Source: Citrobacter telavivensis
GTDB taxonomy: Bacteria > Pseudomonadota > Gammaproteobacteria > Enterobacterales > Enterobacteriaceae
Assembly (NCBI GenBank): GCA_009363175.1
Contig: CP045205.1
Coordinates: 856,549 to 920,548, forward strand
Direction of reading: 5' to 3'
DNA: 64,000 bases
In this document: piece by piece, positions 27,502 to 38,425 of the stretch
Layout of the letters: every line of letters begins with the position of its first letter
Numbering within the stretch: position 1 is the stretch's first letter
Made by a program: the position numbers and the translations under genes
The notes under the pieces: model-generated
Told to the model about the DNA's origin: nothing
The model's input: the letters and a program-made list of their open reading frames with translations, nothing else
Database searches by the model: none

Positions 27502-27857
27502 ATGCTGCTAAACAAGCAGGTACTTAGATCTGTTGCCTGGGTCGGGCATTCTTTCGAAGACTGCGCGATTTCCCGCCAGAGGTACGTAAAGATGCCGGTT
27601 ACCCACTACATCGTGTCCAGGCGGGATTAGAGGCTGCTGACTGGAAACCGATGCCTGAGATTGGGCGTGGTGTTGAAGAGCTCCGATTACGTAATGAAGC
27701 TGGAGCATACCGGATTATCTACCTTGCCCGCTTTGAGGATACCGTCTATGTGCTGCACTGTTTCAGTAAGAAAACGCAGCGGACTTCCGGGCAGGATAAA
27801 CACATTGCGCAGGTTCGCTTTCAGGCGGTCTGTCAGGAACACAGGAGGCGTCAATGA
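27502..27857 (+). pseudogene. Gp49/HigB-like (RelE/ParE superfamily) toxin gene, broken by a 1-nt deletion at about 27560
   Basis: Frame A reads MLLNKQVLRSVAWVGHSFED and then stops. Frame B continues LRDFPPEVRKDAGYPLHRVQAGLEAADWKPMPEIGRGVEELRLRNEAGAYRIIYLARFEDTVYVLHCFSKKTQRTSGQD. Together they make a typical DUF891 toxin. Confidence 0.7.
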
Positions 27858-28192
27858 GCCACGAAGTGGATACTAAAATTCGTCATGTCACTTCTGCACA
27901 GGCGAATATTTTTGCTGAACCAGGCTTTGATGACGCAGAAGCCAAACACCTTCAACAAGACGCAGAACGTGAAGTGGAACAACTCATCCGTCTCAAACAA
28001 CAGCTTATGCAGGAAATCGCTGTCTGGATTGAAGAAAATCACATGAAACAATCAGAGGCGGCGGTGAGATTAAATATCTCGCGGCCCCGCGTTTCCGATG
28101 TCGTTAACCAGAAAGCGAGCAAATTTACCCTGGATGCATTGGTCATGATGCTGATGAAGTTAGGAATACCGGTGACGGTGCAGGTAGGTTAG
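27854..28192 (+). CDS. XRE-family HTH antitoxin (HigA-like), partner of the broken toxin. Its start overlaps the toxin stop.
   Basis: ...HMKQSEAAVRLNISRPRVSDVVNQKASKFTLDALVMMLMKLGIPVTVQV is a C-terminal HTH of the addiction-module antidote type. Confidence 0.75.
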   Translation: MSHEVDTKIRHVTSAQANIFAEPGFDDAEAKHLQQDAEREVEQLIRLKQQLMQEIAVWIEENHMKQSEAAVRLNISRPRVSDVVNQKASKFTLDALVMMLMKLGIPVTVQVG

Positions 28193-29166: not shown

Positions 29167-29284
29167 GTTGTTTTCCTTGCACGTATGTTGTGTTTGCTTG
29201 TTATTAACCGGTTGGGATCGAGCCCAACCATAGTTAGTTTTTATCGTGTGAAGGAATATTATTCAAACAAATTATACACTTTAT

Positions 29285-29392
29285 CCTTCAAGCTGCCTCA
29301 GCGTTGGCTGTCTTCGTTCACCCCTGTCACTTACTTATGTAAGCTCCAGGGGATTCTCTCAGTTGCCGCCTTGATGCAACTCGAATGATTTT
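29285..29392. repeat. ERIC/IRU element (copy 1), directly downstream of rtcR
   Basis: The minus strand reads ...GAGAATCCCCTGGAGCTTACATAAGTAAGTGACAGGGGTGAACG..., the conserved ERIC core. A paralogous copy lies at 62422-62525. Confidence 0.8.
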
Positions 29393-29402
29393 GTGTATAT
29401 GC

Positions 29403-30983
29403 TCATGTTCTGACTTTGAGATTTTCCCAGCTCAGGCCGAACCGTGCGAGGTACTTACGCAGACGGTCGGCATCGTTGGGATTGGCTTTCTTCTGTCGGG
29501 AGACGGCGAAGAGTTCACGTCCGGCTTCGGACAACGATGCGCTGCGTCGGCATACCTCGAGCACCGTTTCCAGTTGGCGGCGGTCAAAGAGGTCGAGTTC
29601 CATCTCTCGTTCCGGTTGCAACGCCGTCTCCCCCCAACTCTCCTGCAAAAGCGCGATCTCTTCTTCGACGAGGGCGGGCGTAATACGCCCTTGCTCAGCC
29701 AGCGTTGCCATTCGCGCGACGGAGGAGCTCAGCTCGCGGAAATTGCCGCGCCACTGCGCCTGGGGCGAACAGGCAAACGCCAGATAGCGTTCGCGCGCCT
29801 CTTTATCAAAGCGGATCTGATTCTGTCGACTGCGGGAGAAACGTTGCAACTCATACTCAACGTTAGGGGCAATGTCTTCACGCCGCTGGGCAAGGCCGGG
29901 CAAGGCAAAGCGCCACATGTTAATACGTGCGTAGAGATCTTCGCGAAAACGCCCTTCGGCGACCCACTGTGGCATATCGCGATGGGTGCCGGCAATCAAC
30001 TGGAAGTCGCTGTGCACCTCTTTATCTGAGCCAAACGGGAAGAAGGTTTTCTCCTCGATCGCTTTCAGCAGCATGGCCTGTTCGTCCAGCCCCAGTTCAG
30101 CGATTTCATCCAGAAACAGCACCCCGCCGTCGGCTTCGCGTAACAGTCCGGTTCGCGATGACAGGGCACCTGTAAACGCGCCTTTCACATGTCCAAACAG
30201 CGTCGACATAGCGTTATCGCCGCGCAGGGTAGCGCAGTTAACCGCTACCAGTTTTCCACCCACCAGATGTCGCGACTGGCGAAGCTGGAAAATCCGTTTG
30301 GCGAGGAAGGATTTCCCCGCGCCGGTCGGGCCGGTGAGCAGGATAGGATCGCCTGAGCGCAAGGCCACGCGCTCAATGCGGTCAATCAGTTTGTTGAAGG
30401 TAGCATTGCGCGTCTCGATACCGGCTTTGAGGAAGGAGACCGACTGCTGCTGCTCACGCTGAAAGCGACTGGTGAGCGTGGCATAGCGGCTTAAATCGAG
30501 ATCGATAACCGAACAGGTGCCAGCGGCAACGTCCTCCGGTGGAGCGCCCTTCGGCGCGGGGCCGGTTTGCAGCAGGCTGGCGGGCAGATAGCGGGCTTCC
30601 GTCAACAGGAACCAGCAAATTTGTGCCACGTGAGTGCCGGTGGTGATGTGCACCAGATACTCTTCGTTCTCGGTATCGAAGGTGTAGTGCGTGGCAAAGT
30701 CGAGGAACGCGGCATAGACCTCTTCGAAATCCCACGGATCGGCAATGGTGATCGCATGCGGGCGGACCTGGGTATGTGGGGAGAGCAGGTTGATATCCTC
30801 CGCCAGTTGCTGACACATCCCGGCATCGCGTGGCTGGTGGATAAGCTCCAGTCGATCGACCGGGAAATCCGGCTGTTGACACAGTCCGACCGTTGGTCGC
30901 CATTTCTTGAGCCGGTTTGCCCGCTTGCCGCGTTTATCCAGCACCGTGCCCAGCACGCCAATCACCACCCGCCGCTTTTTCAT
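29403..30983 (-). CDS. rtcR: RtcR: sigma-54-dependent activator with an N-terminal CARF-like sensor domain, an AAA+ (GAFTGA) domain and a C-terminal HTH
   Basis: 526 aa. MKKRRVVIGVLGTVLDKRG...ITIADPWDFEEVYAAFLDFA (RtcR N-domain), GPTGAGKSFLAKRI, HVKGAFTGA, C-terminal HTH. Divergent from an rtcB operon. Confidence 0.9.
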   Translation of the reverse strand: MKKRRVVIGVLGTVLDKRGKRANRLKKWRPTVGLCQQPDFPVDRLELIHQPRDAGMCQQLAEDINLLSPHTQVRPHAITIADPWDFEEVYAAFLDFATHYTFDTENEEYLVHITTGTHVAQICWFLLTEARYLPASLLQTGPAPKGAPPEDVAAGTCSVIDLDLSRYATLTSRFQREQQQSVSFLKAGIETRNATFNKLIDRIERVALRSGDPILLTGPTGAGKSFLAKRIFQLRQSRHLVGGKLVAVNCATLRGDNAMSTLFGHVKGAFTGALSSRTGLLREADGGVLFLDEIAELGLDEQAMLLKAIEEKTFFPFGSDKEVHSDFQLIAGTHRDMPQWVAEGRFREDLYARINMWRFALPGLAQRREDIAPNVEYELQRFSRSRQNQIRFDKEARERYLAFACSPQAQWRGNFRELSSSVARMATLAEQGRITPALVEEEIALLQESWGETALQPEREMELDLFDRRQLETVLEVCRRSASLSEAGRELFAVSRQKKANPNDADRLRKYLARFGLSWENLKVRT

Positions 30984-31112
30984 GGTTTATCCCAAAAGAT
31001 AAATATCGATATTGAAAGATAAAAAATACGGAAGGCATCTGCAATCACCATTATTGGCGATAAAAATTAATCCATTATTAATCAGATAATTAAAAATTAA
31101 TTTTGTCTTTTT

Positions 31113-31128
31113 TTCGTTCTGGCACGCT
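31113..31128 (+). promoter_or_regulatory. Sigma-54 (-24/-12) promoter driving the SPFH-rtcB-NTase operon
   Basis: TGGCACgcttcTGGCA, one mismatch from TGGCAC-N5-TTGCA. It lies in the rtcR-divergent intergenic region, as in known rtc operons. Confidence 0.7.
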
Positions 31129-31138
31129 TCTGGCAATA

Positions 31139-31436
31139 ACACTCTCGTCAACACGTTGAAAGCGCAGGGGGTTAAACCCCGCCGGCACGTCAGGAACGGC
31201 AGCGGCTGTTTTCCGGAGGTGTTCCGTCAACCGATGACACCTGAACAATGGGTTCGATTCCCGATTCATTCTCCCAATGAAACTGGTTGTTAATCATAGA
31301 AATAAAAACGGGTACTGCGCAGTCAGCAGGCCCCAAAACAGGTTGCCGGTCACGATGCCGCGCCGCAGGCAAAAGGGAATTCCCCTGTAGCTTCGCCTCC
31401 GCACCCGCACCTGACTTTGATAAGGAAAAGAGAAAA
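31139..31436 (+). ncRNA. Candidate structured leader or Y-RNA-like / tRNA-like RNA between the sigma-54 promoter and the first CDS
   Basis: Non-coding stretch of ~300 nt with three elements: GGGGTT-aaa-AACCCC hairpin (31160-31176), 6-bp hairpin AGGTGT...ACACCT (31218-31243), and GGTTCGATTCCC (31251-31262), which is near-identical to the tRNA T-arm consensus GGTTCGAATCC. Confidence 0.3.
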
Positions 31437-32564
31437 ATGACGAAGAAAATCACTATCCGCAAAGGACAATTAGGTCTGTTAGCGAAAAACGGCGACTACT
31501 ATCAGGTTCTGGAGGCGGGTGAACACCGTCTGCCGTGGTTCAATACGCCAGAGGTGCTGGTGGTTAATCTGGACGGTAGCGAAGTGCCGGAAGCGCTGGC
31601 GAATTATTTACGCCGTTTTCAGCCGGACTGGGTAACGCGTTACGGTCTGGCCGTCGATCTTAACGACAGCGAAGCGGGGGCGTTATACATGAATGAGGTG
31701 TTGCAGGAGATCCTGCCGCCGTCCACGCGCCGTTTGTACTGGCGAGCCGACGAGGCGTTGAAACTGGTACGCATGGATACGCGTCAGGTTCAGGTGCCCA
31801 CAGAGGTCATGAATGCGGTCCTGCAACCGCGACGTAACGGTGCGGTTAAAGGTCGTGAAGCGATGCTCACCGTGCAGGTTCCGGCCTGGCATGCGGGTGT
31901 GTTGAAAATTGACGGTGAGACGCAGGCGCTGTTGCCGCCGGGTCTGACGGCGTACTGGAAAGTGAATCATCTGGTTGACGCGGAAGTGGTGGATACCCGT
32001 TTGCAGGTACTGGAAGTGGGCGGTCAGGAAATTTTGACCAAAGATAAGGTCAACCTGCGTCTGAATCTGGCGGCGAACTGGCGTTACAGCGACGTGCTGC
32101 AGGCTTTTGCGCAGCTCACTAAACCGCTCGATCATCTGTACCGCGAACTGCAGTTTGCACTGCGTGAAGCCGTCGGGACGCGCACGCTGGATGAGTTGCT
32201 GGAAGATAAGCAGGTGATTGATGACGTAGTCAGCGCGCAGGTGAAAAAACGTATGGCGCCCTATGGCATCGACGTGGCCTCGCTGGGCGTGAAGGACATC
32301 GTGTTGCCGGGGGATATGAAAACGATTCTGTCCCGTCTGGTTGAAGCGGAAAAATCGGCGCAGGCCAACGTGATCCGCCGTCGTGAAGAAACGGCCGCGA
32401 CGCGCTCGCTGTTGAATACGGCGAAAGTGATGGAAAACAACCCGGTAGCGCTGCGCTTAAAAGAGCTGGAAACCCTCGAAAGAGTGGCGGAGCGTATCGA
32501 TAAAATCTCGGTATTCGGTGGCCTGGACCAGGTTCTGCACGGCTTAGTGAACATTAAAGGATAA
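31437..32564 (+). CDS. SPFH/band-7 (stomatin/HflKC-like) domain protein with no predicted TM helix
   Basis: The C-terminal half is ...EILTKDKVNLRLNLAANWRYSD...GIDVASLGVKDIVLPGDMKTILSRLVEAEKSAQANVIRRREETAA..., an SPFH core plus coiled-coil tail. AAGGAAAAG ribosome-binding site. First gene after the sigma-54 promoter. Confidence 0.8.
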   Translation: MTKKITIRKGQLGLLAKNGDYYQVLEAGEHRLPWFNTPEVLVVNLDGSEVPEALANYLRRFQPDWVTRYGLAVDLNDSEAGALYMNEVLQEILPPSTRRLYWRADEALKLVRMDTRQVQVPTEVMNAVLQPRRNGAVKGREAMLTVQVPAWHAGVLKIDGETQALLPPGLTAYWKVNHLVDAEVVDTRLQVLEVGGQEILTKDKVNLRLNLAANWRYSDVLQAFAQLTKPLDHLYRELQFALREAVGTRTLDELLEDKQVIDDVVSAQVKKRMAPYGIDVASLGVKDIVLPGDMKTILSRLVEAEKSAQANVIRRREETAATRSLLNTAKVMENNPVALRLKELETLERVAERIDKISVFGGLDQVLHGLVNIKG

Positions 32565-32569
32565 GAAAC

Positions 32570-33796
32570 ATGGCACATAACGACTATGCGCTGTTGGCGT
32601 CGCAGAACGCGGCGCCGGTGAAAATGTGGACGCACGGCGTTCCGGTGGAGCCCGAAGCGCGCCAGCAACTGCTGAACACGGCGAAGATGCCGTTTATTTT
32701 TAAACACCTGGCGGTGATGCCGGATGTGCATCTGGGGAAAGGGTCGACCATCGGCAGCGTGATCCCAACCAAAGGGGCGATTATTCCGGCGGCAGTAGGG
32801 GTGGATATCGGCTGTGGGATGATCGCAGTGCGTACTTCGCTGCTGGCCGGCGATCTGCCGGATAACCTCAGCGGGTTGCGGAGCGCGATTGAGCAGGCCG
32901 TTCCACACGGGCGTACGAATACGCGCTCCCGTCGCGACAAAGGCGCGTGGGATACGCCGCCAGAGGAGGTGAGTACTCACTGGGGGATGCTGGCACCGCG
33001 CTTTAAGCGCCTGACTGACAAGTATCCCTCGTTGCTGAAGACCAACAACTATCAGCATCTGGGAACATTGGGAACCGGTAACCACTTCATTGAGGTTTGT
33101 CTGGATGAGCAGCAGCGCGTCTGGGTGATGTTGCACAGCGGCTCGCGCGGCGTGGGGAATGCCATCGGCAACGTTTTCATCACGCTGGCGCAGCAGGATA
33201 TGCAGCAGCATATCGCGAATCTCCCGGACCGAAACCTGGCGTACTTCCAGGAAGAGAGCCAGCACTACAACGACTACATTGAAGCGGTGGAATGGGCGCA
33301 GGATTTTGCCCGGCAAAACCGGGAGGTGATGATGTCCCGTGTCCTGGCCGCGCTGTCGCGCATCGTGAGTAAACCGTTTATCACCCAGCAGGAAGCGGTG
33401 AATTGCCACCATAACTATGTGCAAAAAGAGCGTCACTTTGGTGAAGAGGTGCTGGTGACGCGTAAAGGCGCTGTTTCAGCGCAGAAAGGCCAGATGGGGA
33501 TTATTCCGGGGTCGATGGGGGCGAAAAGCTTCATCGTGCGTGGGCTGGGGAATGAAGAGAGCTTCTGCTCCTGCAGCCATGGCGCAGGAAGAACCATGAG
33601 CCGAACGGCGGCCAAAAAACGCTTTACCGTGGCGGATCAGATCCGCGCGACGGCCCACGTTGAATGCCGTAAAGACAGCGAGGTGATCGATGAAATTCCA
33701 ATGGCTTACAAAGACATTGATGCCGTGATGGCGGCGCAGTCTTCACTGGTGGAGATCGTGCATACGCTGCGGCAGGTGGTGTGTGTAAAAGGATAA
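32570..33796 (+). CDS. rtcB: RNA 3'-phosphate ligase RtcB
   Basis: 408 aa with RtcB signature blocks (MPDVHLGKGSTIGSVIPT, GVDIGCGM, GTGNHFIE, HSGSRGVGN, CHHNYV, NEESFCSCSHGAGR). Very close to the E. coli RtcB sequence as I remember it. Confidence 0.93.
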   Translation: MAHNDYALLASQNAAPVKMWTHGVPVEPEARQQLLNTAKMPFIFKHLAVMPDVHLGKGSTIGSVIPTKGAIIPAAVGVDIGCGMIAVRTSLLAGDLPDNLSGLRSAIEQAVPHGRTNTRSRRDKGAWDTPPEEVSTHWGMLAPRFKRLTDKYPSLLKTNNYQHLGTLGTGNHFIEVCLDEQQRVWVMLHSGSRGVGNAIGNVFITLAQQDMQQHIANLPDRNLAYFQEESQHYNDYIEAVEWAQDFARQNREVMMSRVLAALSRIVSKPFITQQEAVNCHHNYVQKERHFGEEVLVTRKGAVSAQKGQMGIIPGSMGAKSFIVRGLGNEESFCSCSHGAGRTMSRTAAKKRFTVADQIRATAHVECRKDSEVIDEIPMAYKDIDAVMAAQSSLVEIVHTLRQVVCVKG

Positions 33797-33802
33797 AAGA
33801 AG

Positions 33803-34588
33803 ATGGCGAAAAATGCAGTGAGTGCCGCGATGCGCGAACGGGTCGCGCGGCAACTCAAAGAAGTGGAAACGCGTTACGGCGTCAGGGTGCTGTATGCCTG
33901 CGAGTCAGGGAGTCGCGGCTGGGGATTTGCCTCGCCGGATAGTGATTACGATGTGCGGTTTTTGTATGTTCATCCGCCACAGTGGTATCTGCGGGTCGAC
34001 GCGCCGCGCGACGTGATCGAGCTGCCGATAGACGATGAACTGGACGTGTGCGGCTGGGAGTGGCGTAAAGCGCTGGGACTGCTGAAGGGGGCCAACCCGA
34101 CGCTGATCGAGTGGCTGGATTCCCCGGTGGTTTATCAGCAGGATGAGGTCACGGTCAGCGCACTTAAAACGATGATACCGCAGTGGTTTTCTCCACTTCG
34201 CGCACGTTGGCATTACTACTCGATGGCGCGAAAAAACTTTCGCGGCTATTTGCAGGGAGAAGAGGTGCGGCTGAAAAAATACTTCTACGTCCTGCGTCCG
34301 CTGCTGGCGGTGCGTTGGGTCGAAGCGGGTAAAGGCGTTCCGCCCATGCGCTTTGCCGAACTGCTGGCCGGAAGCGAACTGGAGGCGCCGTTACGTCAGG
34401 AGATAGACGAACTGCTGGCGCGCAAACAGCGTGCGGGAGAGGCGGAGTATGGTCCGCGCCGTCCGTTGCTGCATGCGTTCATCCACGCTGAACTGGCGAG
34501 AGGCGAAATCCCGCCCACGCTGCCGGACAGCCGGGAAGGCGACGTGAAGGCACTGGATAAACTGCTTTATGAGACGGTGATGGTATGA
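33803..34588 (+). CDS. Pol-beta-superfamily nucleotidyltransferase, 261 aa, in the position normally occupied by rtcA
   Basis: N-terminal NTase motif ...LYACESGSRGWGFASPDSDYDVRF (hG[GS]...DxD) followed by a helical C-terminal domain. Starts 7 nt after the rtcB stop. Confidence 0.75.
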   Translation: MAKNAVSAAMRERVARQLKEVETRYGVRVLYACESGSRGWGFASPDSDYDVRFLYVHPPQWYLRVDAPRDVIELPIDDELDVCGWEWRKALGLLKGANPTLIEWLDSPVVYQQDEVTVSALKTMIPQWFSPLRARWHYYSMARKNFRGYLQGEEVRLKKYFYVLRPLLAVRWVEAGKGVPPMRFAELLAGSELEAPLRQEIDELLARKQRAGEAEYGPRRPLLHAFIHAELARGEIPPTLPDSREGDVKALDKLLYETVMV

Positions 34589-34594
34589 CTACGT

Positions 34595-34682
34595 TGCCCG
34601 ATGGCGCTGCGCTTATCGGGCCTACGTGGGCAAAATTTGTAGGCCGGATAAAGCGCGGAGCGCCGCCATCCGGCATTGAATC
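34595..34682. repeat. REP cluster between the NTase gene and lysC
   Basis: cccgatggcgctgcgcttatcgggcctac ... gtaggccggataaagcgcggagcgccgccatccggca. Confidence 0.75.
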
Positions 34683-34686
34683 TATA

Positions 34687-36036
34687 TCACTCAAACAAAT
34701 TCTGGTGCAGTTTTTGCACCACTTGCTCGGCTTCGGTGCCAGGCACCAGGAAACAGAGGTTATGGCTGGAAGCGCCATAGCAAATCATACGGATATTGAA
34801 CGGTTCCAGCACGCCGAACACCTCTTTGCCGACGCCGCAGGCTTTCGACAGATCGTTACCAATCAGCGCAACCAGCGCGAGACCCTCTTCAACCTCCACC
34901 CGACACAAGGCAGACAGTTCCATTAGCAGCGACTGCGTCAGCAGCGTATCGCCAGTGGAGGTCGAGCCGGTGGTATCCAGCGTTAGCGCCACGCTCACTT
35001 CGGAGGTGGTGATCAGATCGACCGAGATATTATGGCGTGCCAGAATACCGAATACTTCGGCCAGGAAACCGCGCGAGTGCAGCATATTCAGGCTGTGCAG
35101 CGTTAACAGGGTTTGTTTACGACGCAGCGCCAGCGCGCGGAACAGCGGTGGATTCTGGGTTTTATTGCAGACCAGCGTACCGCCCGCTTTCGGATCTTTA
35201 CTGGAGCCGACGAAGACCGGGATATCGCTGCGCACGGCGGGCAGCAGGGTGGCCGGATGCAGCACTTTCGCACCAAAGGTGGCCATTTCCGCCGCCTCTT
35301 CAAAGGCGATTTCATCAATGCGCTGCGCCGCAGGCACCACGCGAGGATCGGTGGTGTAGATGCCCGGAACGTCCGTCCAGATATCGACACGCGCGGCATG
35401 GAGCGCTTCGGCCAACAGGGCCGCCGTGTAGTCGCTGCCGCCGCGTCCGAGTGTGGTTGTGCGCCCTTTGCCTTCGCTGCCGATGAACCCCTGAGTGATC
35501 ACCAGCCCTTCGTTCAGACGTGGGGTCAGTTGCAGCGTTGCCAGTTCTGCCAGCGCCGCGACGTCAGGTTCGGCGCGACCAAAGCGATCGTTGGTACGCA
35601 TCACTTTACGCACATCGAACCACTGCGCCTGAACGTGACGCTCACGCAGGATTTCAACAAACAGCAGAGTAGACATCAGTTCGCCGTGGCTGACCAGTTC
35701 ATCCGTCAGCGCGGTGGAAGTGGCGAGTGAGGCCGCTTCCGCCAGCGTGGTGATATTTTCCAGCAGACGTTCGATCTCTTCACGAATAACGTTTGGATAA
35801 CGCAGACGTTCCAGGATATCGAATTGAATTTTGCGGATAGCGTCGAGTTTCTCGAAGCGTTCGGTGGGTTCCAGACCTTCAGCCAGTGCAACCAGTAAAT
35901 TAGTGATGCCTGCGGAAGCGGAGAGCACCACTAAACGCACGTTTGCATCGGAAAGCACCACGTCGGCGCTGCGGTTCATGGCATCGAAATCAGCGACGCT
36001 GGTTCCGCCAAATTTGGAAACAACGATTTCTGTCAT
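34687..36036 (-). CDS. lysC: Lysine-sensitive aspartokinase III
   Basis: MTEIVVSKFGGTSVADFDAMNRSADVVLSDANVRLVVLSASAGITN..., 449 aa. Confidence 0.95.
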   Translation of the reverse strand: MTEIVVSKFGGTSVADFDAMNRSADVVLSDANVRLVVLSASAGITNLLVALAEGLEPTERFEKLDAIRKIQFDILERLRYPNVIREEIERLLENITTLAEAASLATSTALTDELVSHGELMSTLLFVEILRERHVQAQWFDVRKVMRTNDRFGRAEPDVAALAELATLQLTPRLNEGLVITQGFIGSEGKGRTTTLGRGGSDYTAALLAEALHAARVDIWTDVPGIYTTDPRVVPAAQRIDEIAFEEAAEMATFGAKVLHPATLLPAVRSDIPVFVGSSKDPKAGGTLVCNKTQNPPLFRALALRRKQTLLTLHSLNMLHSRGFLAEVFGILARHNISVDLITTSEVSVALTLDTTGSTSTGDTLLTQSLLMELSALCRVEVEEGLALVALIGNDLSKACGVGKEVFGVLEPFNIRMICYGASSHNLCFLVPGTEAEQVVQKLHQNLFE

Positions 36037-36059
36037 AACAACCTCGTGTCAGGGAGTGA

Positions 36060-36265
36060 GAAAGCGACCTGGGCACAAAGGCAGAACAGAAACCGGTGCA
36101 GGCGCAAATACCGTATTTATAAATAAAATGTGTGGCCTGGACTGTCAACGCTGGGATTATGCGGATTTTTCATGCTGCGTTTAGCCTCAGTAATGGTGCT
36201 TATAACAACGATACTTTTCGGCGGCATTTGACCGTGGCCAGGCAACGGCACTAAAACAATCACAC
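36060..36265 (-). ncRNA. lysC leader, expected lysine riboswitch (LYS element). Coordinates approximate.
   Basis: ~230-nt untranslated leader. The ribosome-binding-site-proximal part (CCCTGACACGAGGTtGTTATG on the minus strand) matches the E. coli lysC leader as I remember it. Enterobacterial lysC carries a lysine riboswitch. Confidence 0.55.
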
Positions 36266-36328
36266 TTTTCTGTGACTGGCGTTACAATCGATCCCAGTCA
36301 CAATTCTCAAATCAGAAGAGTATTGCTA

Positions 36329-38062: not shown

Positions 38063-38077
38063 AGTTAATAATGAAAT

Positions 38078-38106
38078 GAGCCGATATTATTATCGGCTTT
38101 TTTTAT
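38078..38106 (+). terminator. Rho-independent terminator after pgi
   Basis: gagccgata-ttatta-tatcggc followed by TTTTTTT. Confidence 0.75.
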
Positions 38107-38425
38107 AAGATAATTCCGGTTGTCCGTGTTGTTTCCCGCAATTTTATATTGAGCATAATCCTAAAATAATAAATAACCGTAAAATAACCCAGTGTTATTT
38201 TAGGATAATACGGATCGTTTAGCTAAATGAATTTAATGTTAATATGCTGTTTTTAATGATTATTATTATTTTTATAAAAATGAATTGTTCAGCAAAAGTC
38301 CAATTATCCTAAAACCACCTTGCTATTTCCCCCTGCCGTAATTCGCATGCTTTAGTTGTGTATACTCGATCCCGCCCGAAATGCTTTTGGGTAAATCTCC
38401 ATTCATTCAATGAAGGGAAATTGTT

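What the first reader, a model, noticed from the sequence alone, without database searches (positions are those of the whole stretch)
33803..34588. Pol-beta-type nucleotidyltransferase occupies the rtcA slot
A 261-aa protein with a classical minimal NTase motif (GSRGWGFASPDSDYD) and a helical C-terminal domain is translationally coupled to rtcB (7-nt gap). RtcA, the 3'-phosphate cyclase that normally follows rtcB, is absent. One possibility is that this enzyme acts on RNA 3' ends (nucleotide addition, CCA-like repair or nucleotidylylation) to complement RtcB ligation. Alternatively it could be an MNT-like toxin or modifier.
Basis: partly seen in the sequence, partly recalled or inferred. Interest (0 to 1): 0.6.

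Follow-up and report, generated by a model that had tools for sequence, protein, structure and literature searches.

The report
RlaP nucleotidyltransferase in RtcB repair operon

Summary
The ORF at 33803-34588 (+) is real. It has 261 aa, the motif GSRGWGFASPDSDYD at residues 36-50, and a 6-nt (not 7-nt) gap after rtcB.

It is a full-length member of Pfam PF10127, RlaP, the 'RNA repair pathway DNA polymerase beta family' (E 7e-96). That family was named for this gene association (Burroughs & Aravind 2016). A 2025 preprint shows that two Pseudomonas RlaPs add one or two NMPs to RNA 3'-OH ends.

The window is from a Citrobacter. The gene closes an operon made of divergent rtcR, a sigma54 promoter, a structured tRNA-like leader RNA, band7, rtcB and rlaP. 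This cassette sits at the same lysC-pgi locus across Enterobacterales.

RtcA is absent from the window and from every enterobacterial locus examined. Pseudomonas and beta-proteobacterial relatives carry rtcB-rlaP-rtcA. RlaP therefore accompanies RtcA rather than replacing it, and rtcA is simply missing here.

Seventeen species keep band7-rlaP without rtcB. How the 3'-OH product of RlaP feeds RtcB, which needs a 3'-phosphate, is still unsolved.

The MNT-like, CCA-adding and CD-NTase readings are not supported.

Verdict: already known, low interest. Two side observations are a covarying leader RNA with no Rfam family and a lysC gene that has lost its lysine riboswitch.

The parts
29403..30983 (-). 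rtcR, the sigma54-dependent activator with an RtcR/CARF N-terminal domain, transcribed divergently from the operon
   Evidence: NCBIfam NF038308 RNA_repair_RtcR, E 1.5e-247, 822 bits against a cut-off of 650. Pfam RtcR plus Sigma54_activat. 61% identical to E. coli RtcR.
31120..31135 (+). sigma54-type promoter TGGCAC-GCTTC-TGGCA (-24 GG at 31121-31122, -12 GC at 31133-31134)
   Evidence: A TGGCAC-N5-TGGC element is present at the same place in all but one (L078) of the band7-type loci scanned. E. coli rtcBA has TGGCACGACGGTTGC at the equivalent site. No sigma70-like promoter was found anywhere in 30900-34800.
31147..31412 (+). Structured untranslated leader RNA with at least 9 helices. It includes a tRNA T-arm-like hairpin (31248-31264, loop UUCGAUU) followed by a closed hairpin (31265-31281). 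It is probably the degenerate enterobacterial form of the Band-7-associated tRNA-like RNA.
   Evidence: RNAalifold on 27 genera or species gives 51 pairs, 34 with compensatory changes. 96.4% of cells are paired against 40-51% when partners are slid, and 0 of 500 shuffles reach the observed values. GGTTCGAnTCC lies upstream of band7 in 49/49 band7 loci and is absent in 22/23 loci without band7. The Pseudomonas leader has the same GCAGGGG..CCCCGCCGG hairpin followed by two tRNA-shaped genes called by ARAGORN. There is no Rfam hit and no ARAGORN hit in the window itself.
31437..32564 (+). band7 (SPFH/slipin-like protein, 375 aa), first gene of the operon
   Evidence: Pfam PF01145 Band_7, E 5e-27. 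Orthologues of 377-380 aa are called at the same position in K. aerogenes and Cronobacter. Indels that are not multiples of three upstream of 31437 rule out the longer TTG-started ORF.
32570..33796 (+). rtcB, RNA 3'-phosphate ligase (408 aa)
   Evidence: Pfam PF01139, E 2e-131, full length. 72% identical to E. coli RtcB over 404 of 408 residues, with the C-terminal CSCSHGAGR block identical in both.
33803..34588 (+). rlaP, an RlaP-family Pol-beta nucleotidyltransferase (261 aa) and the finding itself. NTase motif G36-S37...D48-x-D50 (nt 33908-33952) and third carboxylate D81 (nt 34043-34045).
   Evidence: Pfam PF10127 RlaP, E 7.3e-96, residues 10-256 on profile positions 1-248 of 249. PHROG 14344 'nucleotidyltransferase', E 9e-116. 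G36, S37, D48, D50 and D81 are invariant in 21 sequences down to 37% identity. 59% identical to a Pseudomonas orthologue encoded in rtcB-rlaP-rtcA. AlphaFold pLDDT 95.6.
34595..34675 (.). Pair of inverted REP-like palindromes that fill the spacer between the converging rlaP and lysC genes and mark the end of the operon
   Evidence: Nested inverted repeats of 10-13 nt. The GCCGGATAA(G/A)GCG motif occurs 16 times in the window against 2.25 expected.

Best explanation
The gene encodes an RlaP-family (PF10127) Pol-beta-fold nucleotidyltransferase. It is the last cistron of an RtcR/sigma54-controlled RNA-repair operon: tRNA-like leader RNA, band7, rtcB, rlaP.

Proposed sequence of events:
- RNA breakage, mainly of tRNA, yields fragments ending in 2',3'-cyclic phosphate.
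- These fragments bind the CARF domain of RtcR, which then activates the sigma54 promoter at 31120-31135.
- RtcB seals 3'-P or 2',3'-cyclic-P ends to 5'-OH ends.
- RlaP uses D48, D50 and D81 with a divalent metal (Mn2+ in the homologues) to add one or two untemplated NMPs to the 3'-OH of broken RNAs. This lets ends that have lost nucleotides be rebuilt before or alongside ligation.

Shown here: family membership, intact catalytic residues, two-domain fold, operon structure, promoter, and conservation of the cassette.

Inferred by homology: the chemistry (Pseudomonas enzymes, preprint) and the RtcR signal (Salmonella).

Not known: the physiological substrates, and how a 3'-OH product becomes a substrate for RtcB.
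For: Family and catalytic residues:
- Full-length PF10127 match, E 7e-96.
- Invariant GS/DxD/D triad.
- Confident model with an NTase domain plus a helical domain.

Operon structure:
- A 6-nt spacer with the SD inside rtcB, and no internal promoter or terminator.
- rtcR equivalog hit.
- Near-invariant sigma54 promoter.

Conservation of the linkage:
- rlaP lies directly downstream of rtcB in 55 of 80 species loci from Enterobacterales to beta-proteobacteria, and in Pseudomonas.

Literature:
- PfRlaP and PaRlaP add 1-2 NMPs to RNA 3'-OH. They prefer a nicked-tRNA mimic, are Mn2+-dependent, and do not act on DNA or protein (PMC12776372).
Against: - There is no experiment on this protein. Identity was measured (59%) to a Pseudomonas orthologue, not to the two characterised enzymes, whose sequences I could not obtain.
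- The biochemical source is a non-peer-reviewed preprint.
- Its authors state that RlaP products (3'-OH) are not RtcB substrates.
- This operon also lacks RtcA, which Salmonella needs for induction.
- Seventeen species keep band7-rlaP with rtcB cleanly missing, and about five keep rlaP alone. The link to RtcB is therefore not obligatory.
Confidence: 0.8

Rival explanations
1. RlaP works mainly with Band7 and the tRNA-like leader RNA rather than with RtcB. It might extend or tag the operon's own tRNA mimic, or broken tRNAs held by a Band7 assembly. That would be an RNA-surveillance module in which RtcB is optional.
For: - Seventeen species loci have rtcR | leader | band7-rlaP with rtcB precisely absent.
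- The leader RNA is strictly linked to band7: 49/49 loci against 1/23.
- The leader RNA is strongly structured.
- RlaP homologues prefer tRNA-shaped substrates.
Against: - Fourteen rtcR|rtcB-rlaP loci and nine rtcB-rlaP loci have neither band7 nor the leader, so band7 is just as dispensable.
- RlaP is also found with other RNA ligases and in jumbo phages.
- There are no interaction data.
- Species without rtcB in the operon may encode it elsewhere. This was not testable here.
Confidence: 0.12
2. It is a small-molecule nucleotidyltransferase, for example an antibiotic-modifying enzyme like ANT(4')/KNTase, LinB or AadA, that merely happens to sit in the operon.
For: The best Foldseek matches to solved structures are KNTase/ANT(4'), the 3c18 NTase-like protein, AadA and LinB.
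Against: - The matches are remote: TM <= 0.46, 8-15% identity, E no better than 4e-5.
- The Pfam family is distinct.
- Operon linkage to rtcB and rtcR is conserved over long evolutionary distance.
- The homologues label RNA.
Confidence: 0.03
3. It makes a nucleotide or oligonucleotide signal, in the way CD-NTases or Hailong HalB do, as part of a defence system.
For: Hailong HalB, an oligodeoxyadenylate-making NTase, is among the top structural matches. The family also occurs in phages.
Against: - There is no PADLOC match for RlaP, Band7 or RtcB.
- CdnC appears only at rank 50 with probability 0.30.
- No effector gene lies nearby.
- The homologues add only 1-2 nt and need an RNA primer.
Confidence: 0.03
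4. It is an MNT-like antitoxin or toxin, or a protein AMPylase.
For: Only the shared minimal Pol-beta NTase motif supports it.
Against: - The protein is 261 aa with a large helical domain.
- There is no adjacent HEPN or other partner gene, and the next gene is a convergent lysC.
- No MNT or HEPN families appear in the Pfam or PADLOC results.
- E. coli proteins are not substrates of the homologues.
Confidence: 0.02

Closest known systems
RlaP family (Pfam PF10127), as characterised for Pseudomonas fluorescens and P. aeruginosa RlaP (Carruthers, Fatma & Huang 2025, PMC12776372) and named by Burroughs & Aravind 2016
   Same: - Full-length profile match and the same three invariant Asp residues.
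- The same NTase plus helical-domain layout.
- The same position directly after rtcB under RtcR control.
- 59% identity to a Pseudomonas orthologue.
   Different: - The enterobacterial cassette has no rtcA after rlaP and no zinc-ribbon gene.
- It sits at the lysC-pgi locus.
- Activity of this orthologue is untested.
Canonical E. coli rtcR | rtcBA operon
   Same: - Divergent RtcR (61% identity).
- A sigma54 promoter of the same type.
- RtcB at 72% identity.
   Different: - RtcA is absent here.
- A roughly 300-nt structured leader RNA, band7 and rlaP are added.
- The chromosomal site differs (lysC-pgi instead of glpR-malT).
Salmonella rsr-yrlBA-rtcBA operon and its YrlA tRNA-like Y RNAs (Rfam RF02553)
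   Same: - An RtcR-controlled RNA-repair operon that carries a tRNA-mimicking noncoding RNA.
- The order T-arm then closed hairpin in the leader resembles the start of the YrlA layout.
- One relative, L081, has rsr-YrlB-YrlA-rtcB-rlaP-rtcA.
   Different: - There is no Rsr/Ro60 here. Band7 takes that position.
- The Rfam YrlA model does not match the window even at E <= 10.
[quoted passage not shown]
   Same: A noncoding tRNA-like element lies immediately upstream of a Band-7 gene next to rtcB. In Pseudomonas L087 and Burkholderiales L082 these are cloverleaf tRNAs found by ARAGORN.
   Different: In the window only the T-arm and a following hairpin survive. They are embedded in a larger covarying RNA, and ARAGORN does not call it. 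I could not read the original description.
Kanamycin nucleotidyltransferase / ANT(4') and related two-domain NTases (structural neighbours)
   Same: An N-terminal Pol-beta NTase domain followed by a helical domain. These are the top Foldseek matches.
   Different: The structural match is remote, with TM about 0.45 and 11-14% identity. They belong to a different Pfam family, use a different acceptor (aminoglycosides), and lack the RNA-repair context.

Membership tests
RlaP (PF10127) | Full-length match to the family profile above the curated threshold | tested here: met
   321 bits against a cut-off of 23, E 7.3e-96, profile positions 1-248 of 249.
RlaP (PF10127) | Pol-beta NTase catalytic signature: G[GS] loop, DxD, and a third conserved Asp | tested here: met
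   G36, S37, D48, D50 and D81 are invariant in 21 diverse family members. The preprint reports three strictly conserved Asp residues.
RlaP (PF10127) | N-terminal NTase domain plus C-terminal helical domain, with a last helix that returns to the NTase domain | tested here: inconclusive
   The AlphaFold model (pLDDT 95.6) shows a beta/alpha N-terminal domain, helices from residue 115 onward and a terminal helix at 248-260. I could not inspect the packing of that helix, and the PfRlaP coordinates are not in the PDB copy.
RlaP (PF10127) | Gene neighbourhood with an RNA ligase in an RNA-repair operon | tested here: met
   The gene lies 6 nt downstream of rtcB and is under RtcR/sigma54 control. The linkage is conserved in 55 of 80 species loci.
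RlaP (PF10127) | Adds 1-2 NMPs to RNA 3'-OH, prefers Mn2+, and has no activity on DNA or protein | not testable with these tools
   Known only for PfRlaP and PaRlaP.
Canonical rtcBA operon | RtcA cyclase encoded with RtcB | tested here: not met
   No RtcA hit better than E 0.25 in the 64-kb window, and none in the enterobacterial loci. Whether rtcA lies elsewhere in the genome is unknown.
MNT/HEPN toxin-antitoxin | Minimal NTase (about 100-150 aa) paired with an adjacent HEPN gene | tested here: not met
   The protein has 261 aa and two domains. Its neighbours are rtcB and a convergent lysC, and there are no HEPN or MNT hits.
CCA-adding enzyme / poly(A) polymerase (class II NTase) | PolyA_pol head domain with the neck, body and tail architecture | tested here: not met
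   PF10127 is the only Pfam hit. No CCA-adding enzyme appears among the top 50 Foldseek PDB matches.
CD-NTase / CBASS | cGAS-like fold with an adjacent effector gene | tested here: not met
   There is no PADLOC hit. CdnC ranks 50 with probability 0.30 and TM 0.20. No effector gene lies nearby.
YrlA Y-RNA-like (RF02553), for the leader RNA | Match to the covariance model, and association with Rsr | tested here: not met
   No hit at E <= 10 in 31100-31450, although the same model scores 79 bits in L081. There is no rsr in the window.

The most novel reading that the evidence does not exclude
In Enterobacterales the module may be a self-baited RNA-damage sensor and repair device. The first thing transcribed from the RtcR promoter is a degenerate tRNA mimic inside a large structured leader. 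Anticodon-nuclease-type toxins could cut this decoy and produce cyclic-phosphate fragments that feed back on RtcR. Band7 and RlaP, which persist together in 17 species that have lost rtcB, would then act on this RNA or on broken tRNAs independently of RtcB ligation. RlaP might mark or rebuild 3' ends for a ligase or decay pathway that has not been identified.
Probability: 0.1. Interest if true: 0.6.

Novelty: already known. Interest (0 to 1): 0.2.

Why it matters
As a discovery it adds little. The family is in Pfam under the name RlaP. It was predicted in 2016 to be an RNA-repair nucleotidyltransferase because of exactly this linkage to RtcB, and its chemistry was reported in 2025.

What remains useful is the comparative picture. 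Enterobacterales carry a stripped version of the cassette with no RtcA, and often with no RtcB. This sharpens an open problem stated by the biochemists: how can an enzyme that leaves a 3'-OH help a ligase that needs a 3'-phosphate?

These natural variants, and the conserved tRNA-like leader RNA that has no Rfam family and no experimental validation, are ready-made genetic material in tractable species such as Citrobacter, Klebsiella aerogenes and Enterobacter.

Tried and rejected
- PDB sequence search: no relative at E <= 0.5, and the PfRlaP crystal structure is not in the copy.
- NCBIfam has no model for the protein. PADLOC has none for RlaP, Band7 or RtcB.
- E. coli complete genomes do not carry the cassette. 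Only rtcB matches, at 73%.
- The longer TTG-started ORF (31287) for band7 was rejected, because indels that are not multiples of three occur upstream of 31437 in relatives. The ORF at 34585-34926 overlapping the REP spacer and lysC was treated as spurious.
- For the leader RNA, ARAGORN finds no tRNA and Rfam finds nothing relevant at E <= 10. The single-sequence folding energy is unremarkable (z = -0.3). Only the comparative analysis revealed the structure.
- I could not fit the leader to a canonical cloverleaf by eye. The stretch after the second hairpin (31283 onward) is not conserved enough to call a D-arm.
- The Burroughs & Aravind 2016 paper is not held, so its content is cited second-hand.
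- I could not test whether rtcA or a second rtcB lies elsewhere in the genome, or in species with only band7-rlaP.

Full report
OBSERVATION. The ORF at 33803-34588 (+) exists as described. It starts with ATG and encodes 261 aa, with GSRGWGFASPDSDYD at residues 36-50. The upstream gene (32570-33796) is RtcB: PF01139, E 2e-131, 72% identical to E. coli RtcB over 404 of 408 residues, with the C-terminal CSCSHGAGR block identical in both. The spacer is 33797-33802, which is 6 nt, not 7. An AGGA Shine-Dalgarno at 33790-33793 lies in the last sense codons of rtcB. Co-translation is therefore plausible but untested. No sigma70-like promoter was found anywhere in 30900-34800, and the terminator-like matches there are no more frequent than in shuffled sequence. 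RtcA is absent: tblastn with E. coli RtcA finds nothing better than E 0.25 in the whole 64-kb window.

IDENTITY. The protein matches Pfam PF10127, 'RlaP, RNA repair pathway DNA polymerase beta family'. The match is end to end (residues 10-256 on profile positions 1-248 of 249) with E 7.3e-96. It also matches PHROG 14344 'nucleotidyltransferase' at E 9e-116. NCBIfam has no model for it. There is no PADLOC hit and no solved relative by sequence.

The family is large. At least 7780 sequences score E <= 1e-3 (only 8000 candidates were scored), and the 120 best shown are 75-92% identical, from Citrobacter, Kluyvera, Klebsiella, Enterobacter, Kosakonia, Cronobacter and others. There are 5187 clusters at 50% identity. 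Homologues occur in 131 phage records, mostly phiKZ-like jumbo phages at about 43% identity. The best genomic matches are Citrobacter sp. ANG330 (95%) and Citrobacter amalonaticus (94%), so the window is from a Citrobacter.

In an alignment of 21 members down to 37% identity, G36, S37, D48, D50 and D81 are invariant. So are R38, W40, K89, N98, E103, W104, H137, Y138, K158, Y162, R165, K208 and E213. This is the Pol-beta NTase signature with its three carboxylates. An AlphaFold model built on that alignment is confident (pLDDT 95.6, pTM 0.90). It shows an alpha/beta N-terminal domain followed by an all-helical C-terminal half.

Foldseek against the PDB finds only remote two-domain NTases: KNTase/ANT(4'), the 3c18 protein, Hailong HalB, AadA, LinB and GlnE. 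These have TM <= 0.46 and 8-15% identity. TUTases and CdnC are marginal, and no CCA-adding enzyme appears in the top 50.

OPERON. Divergent from the operon lies rtcR (29403-30983, -). It hits the NCBIfam equivalog NF038308 at E 1.5e-247 and is 61% identical to E. coli RtcR. At 31120-31135 there is a sigma54-type promoter, TGGCAC-GCTTC-TGGCA. The element is present in all but one of the band7-type loci scanned. E. coli rtcBA has TGGCACGACGGTTGC at the equivalent site.

A leader of about 300 nt follows, then band7 (31437-32564; PF01145, E 5e-27), rtcB and rlaP. The operon ends in a pair of inverted REP-like elements before the convergent lysC.

COMPARATIVE ANATOMY. I collected 80 species-representative loci that encode a relative of the protein and annotated them by tblastn.
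- 28 have rtcR | band7-rtcB-rlaP, as here.
- 17 have band7-rlaP with rtcB cleanly absent. These include the Citrobacter freundii-complex species, Kluyvera, the Klebsiella oxytoca complex, Superficieibacter, Mangrovibacter, Hafnia and Brenneria.
- 14 have rtcR | rtcB-rlaP without band7 (Leclercia, Serratia, Erwinia, Pantoea).
- 9 Photorhabdus loci have rtcB-rlaP.
- About five keep rlaP alone.
- 3 beta-proteobacterial-type loci have rtcB-rlaP-rtcA.

K. aerogenes and Cronobacter carry the cassette at the same lysC-pgi position. A Pseudomonas orthologue that is 59% identical is encoded in rtcR | band7 - zinc-ribbon gene - rtcB - rlaP - rtcA. This agrees with the rtcB-rlaP-rtcA order reported for P. 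fluorescens and P. aeruginosa.

RlaP therefore does not replace RtcA. The two coexist in the fuller form of the cassette, and the enterobacterial version lacks rtcA.

A 9-nt direct repeat, AAAGGATAA, closes both band7 and rtcB, and both proteins end in KG-stop. Several of the loci with only band7-rlaP (Citrobacter pasteurii, Kluyvera, Klebsiella oxytoca) have a single copy at the junction. This gives a simple route to the repeated clean loss of rtcB.

MECHANISM. [quoted passage not shown] I could not read that paper, so I cite it through later papers.

Carruthers, Fatma & Huang (bioRxiv 2025, PMC12776372) report the following for PfRlaP and PaRlaP:
- They label RNA, but not DNA or protein.
- They need a 3'-OH and add one or two NMPs (or dNMPs) from any NTP.
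- They prefer Mn2+ and the broken end of a nicked-tRNA mimic.
- They have an NTase domain, a helical domain and three conserved Asp residues.
- They partly restore aminoacylation of a tRNA that lacks one anticodon-loop nucleotide.

I therefore commit to the following. After RNA damage, RtcR activates the sigma54 promoter. RtcB religates cyclic-phosphate and 5'-OH ends. [quoted passage not shown]

Family membership, catalytic residues, fold, operon structure and conservation are shown here. The chemistry and the inducing signal are inferred from homologues. The weak point is admitted by the preprint: RlaP leaves a 3'-OH, which RtcB cannot use. This cassette also lacks RtcA, and many species keep rlaP without rtcB.

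RIVALS.
- A Band7/leader-RNA-centred role independent of RtcB cannot be excluded (about 0.12). Band7 is equally dispensable in 23 loci, however.
- A small-molecule NTase, a signalling NTase, and an MNT-like or AMPylase role each rest only on remote fold similarity or the generic motif. All are contradicted by the context and by the homologues' substrates.

NOVELTY. The protein, its family name, its predicted role and its operon type (including the Band-7 partner and a Band-7-associated tRNA-like RNA) are all in the literature and in the databases. The finding is a correct re-discovery. I rate it 'already known', with low interest.

NOTICED IN PASSING.

(1) The leader RNA (31147-31412) is a real structured RNA. 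RNAalifold on 27 sequences gives 51 pairs, 34 with compensatory changes. 96.4% of cells are paired against 40-51% for slid controls, and 0 of 500 shuffles reach the observed values. It contains a T-arm-like hairpin (31248-31264, loop UUCGAUU) followed by a covarying closed hairpin (31265-31281).

The motif GGTTCGAnTCC lies upstream of band7 in 49/49 band7 loci and is absent from 22/23 loci without band7. The Pseudomonas leader shares the GCAGGGG..CCCCGCCGG hairpin and then carries two cloverleaf tRNA-like genes. A Burkholderiales locus has six tRNA genes ahead of band7. Another relative has rsr-YrlB-YrlA in that place. The window's element has no Rfam family and escapes ARAGORN.

(2) lysC here has lost its lysine riboswitch through a clean deletion of about 228 nt relative to E. 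coli. K. aerogenes keeps the riboswitch. Five other Citrobacter loci and one Enterobacter locus give no Lysine-riboswitch hit.

(3) A HigB-like toxin gene beside an intact antitoxin gene lacks its start.

(4) The sRNA STnc430 lies at 38067-38228 (-).

Noticed in passing
window 31147-31412 (+), between the sigma54 promoter (31120-31135) and the band7 ATG (31437): A conserved structured leader RNA of about 270 nt with a tRNA T-arm-like hairpin (31248-31264) and a following closed hairpin (31265-31281). It has 51 predicted pairs, 34 with compensatory changes. 96.4% are paired against 40-51% in slid controls. It is strictly linked to band7 (49/49 loci). It has no Rfam family and no ARAGORN call. 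It is probably the degenerate enterobacterial form of the predicted but unvalidated 'Band-7-associated tRNA'. The Pseudomonas leader (L087 1600-2150) shares its first hairpin and carries two cloverleaf tRNA-like genes.
   Followed up: partly
window 36037-36328 (lysC 5' region, - strand): lysC has no lysine riboswitch. Rfam finds none at E <= 10. Alignment with the E. coli pgi-lysC spacer shows a clean gap of about 228 nt that removes the annotated riboswitch, while promoter-like hexamers and the SD/ATG are kept. K. aerogenes (L001) retains RF00168 (91 bits). Citrobacter loci L005-L008 and L013 and E. bugandensis L022 give no hit either.
   Followed up: partly
window 32556-32564 and 33788-33796; loci L008, L011, L016: A 9-nt direct repeat, AAAGGATAA, forms the last codons plus stop of both band7 and rtcB. 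Both proteins end in KG-stop, and the SD for the next gene lies inside the repeat. Several species that have band7-rlaP without rtcB carry one copy at the junction, which suggests repeated clean deletion of rtcB between the repeats.
   Followed up: partly
L008-L014, L016-L019, L023, L028, L049, L052, L067, L078: Seventeen species loci keep rtcR, the leader RNA, band7 and rlaP but lack rtcB in the operon. E. ruysiae (L020) and Intestinirhabdus (L066) keep only rlaP next to lysC. I could not check whether these genomes encode RtcB or RtcA elsewhere.
   Followed up: partly
L081 2352-4720: One relative carries rtcR | Ro60/Rsr-like gene (549 aa) - YrlB-like RNA - one YrlA above threshold (RF02553, 79 bits) flanked by two weaker YrlA-like matches - rtcB - rlaP - rtcA. 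RlaP therefore also occurs in the Ro/Y-RNA version of the operon. The contig is labelled as a Chitinophaga MAG, but its genes look proteobacterial.
   Followed up: partly
L082 8828-10348: In a Burkholderiales MAG, six tRNA genes called by ARAGORN (Asp, Arg, Pro, His, Glu, Thr) lie between rtcA and a band7 gene, downstream of rtcB-rlaP-rtcA.
   Followed up: no
window 27528-28192 (+): A HigB/Gp49-like toxin gene (61% identical to the K. aerogenes L002 copy from residue 11) has an in-frame stop just upstream. It has no ATG, GTG or TTG before 27651, so it is probably a truncated pseudogene. It sits next to an intact HTH_37-type antitoxin ORF (27854-28192).
   Followed up: partly
window 38067-38228 (-): The enterobacterial sRNA STnc430 (RF02053, 136.6 bits) lies downstream of pgi. 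It is the only Rfam family above its gathering score in the window.
   Followed up: no
window 29277-29400 (-): A weak sub-threshold Rfam match to Vibrio RNA AS5 (33 bits against a gathering score of 96, E 5e-4) lies just downstream of the rtcR stop codon. It is probably a chance match or a terminator or REP-like structure.
   Followed up: no
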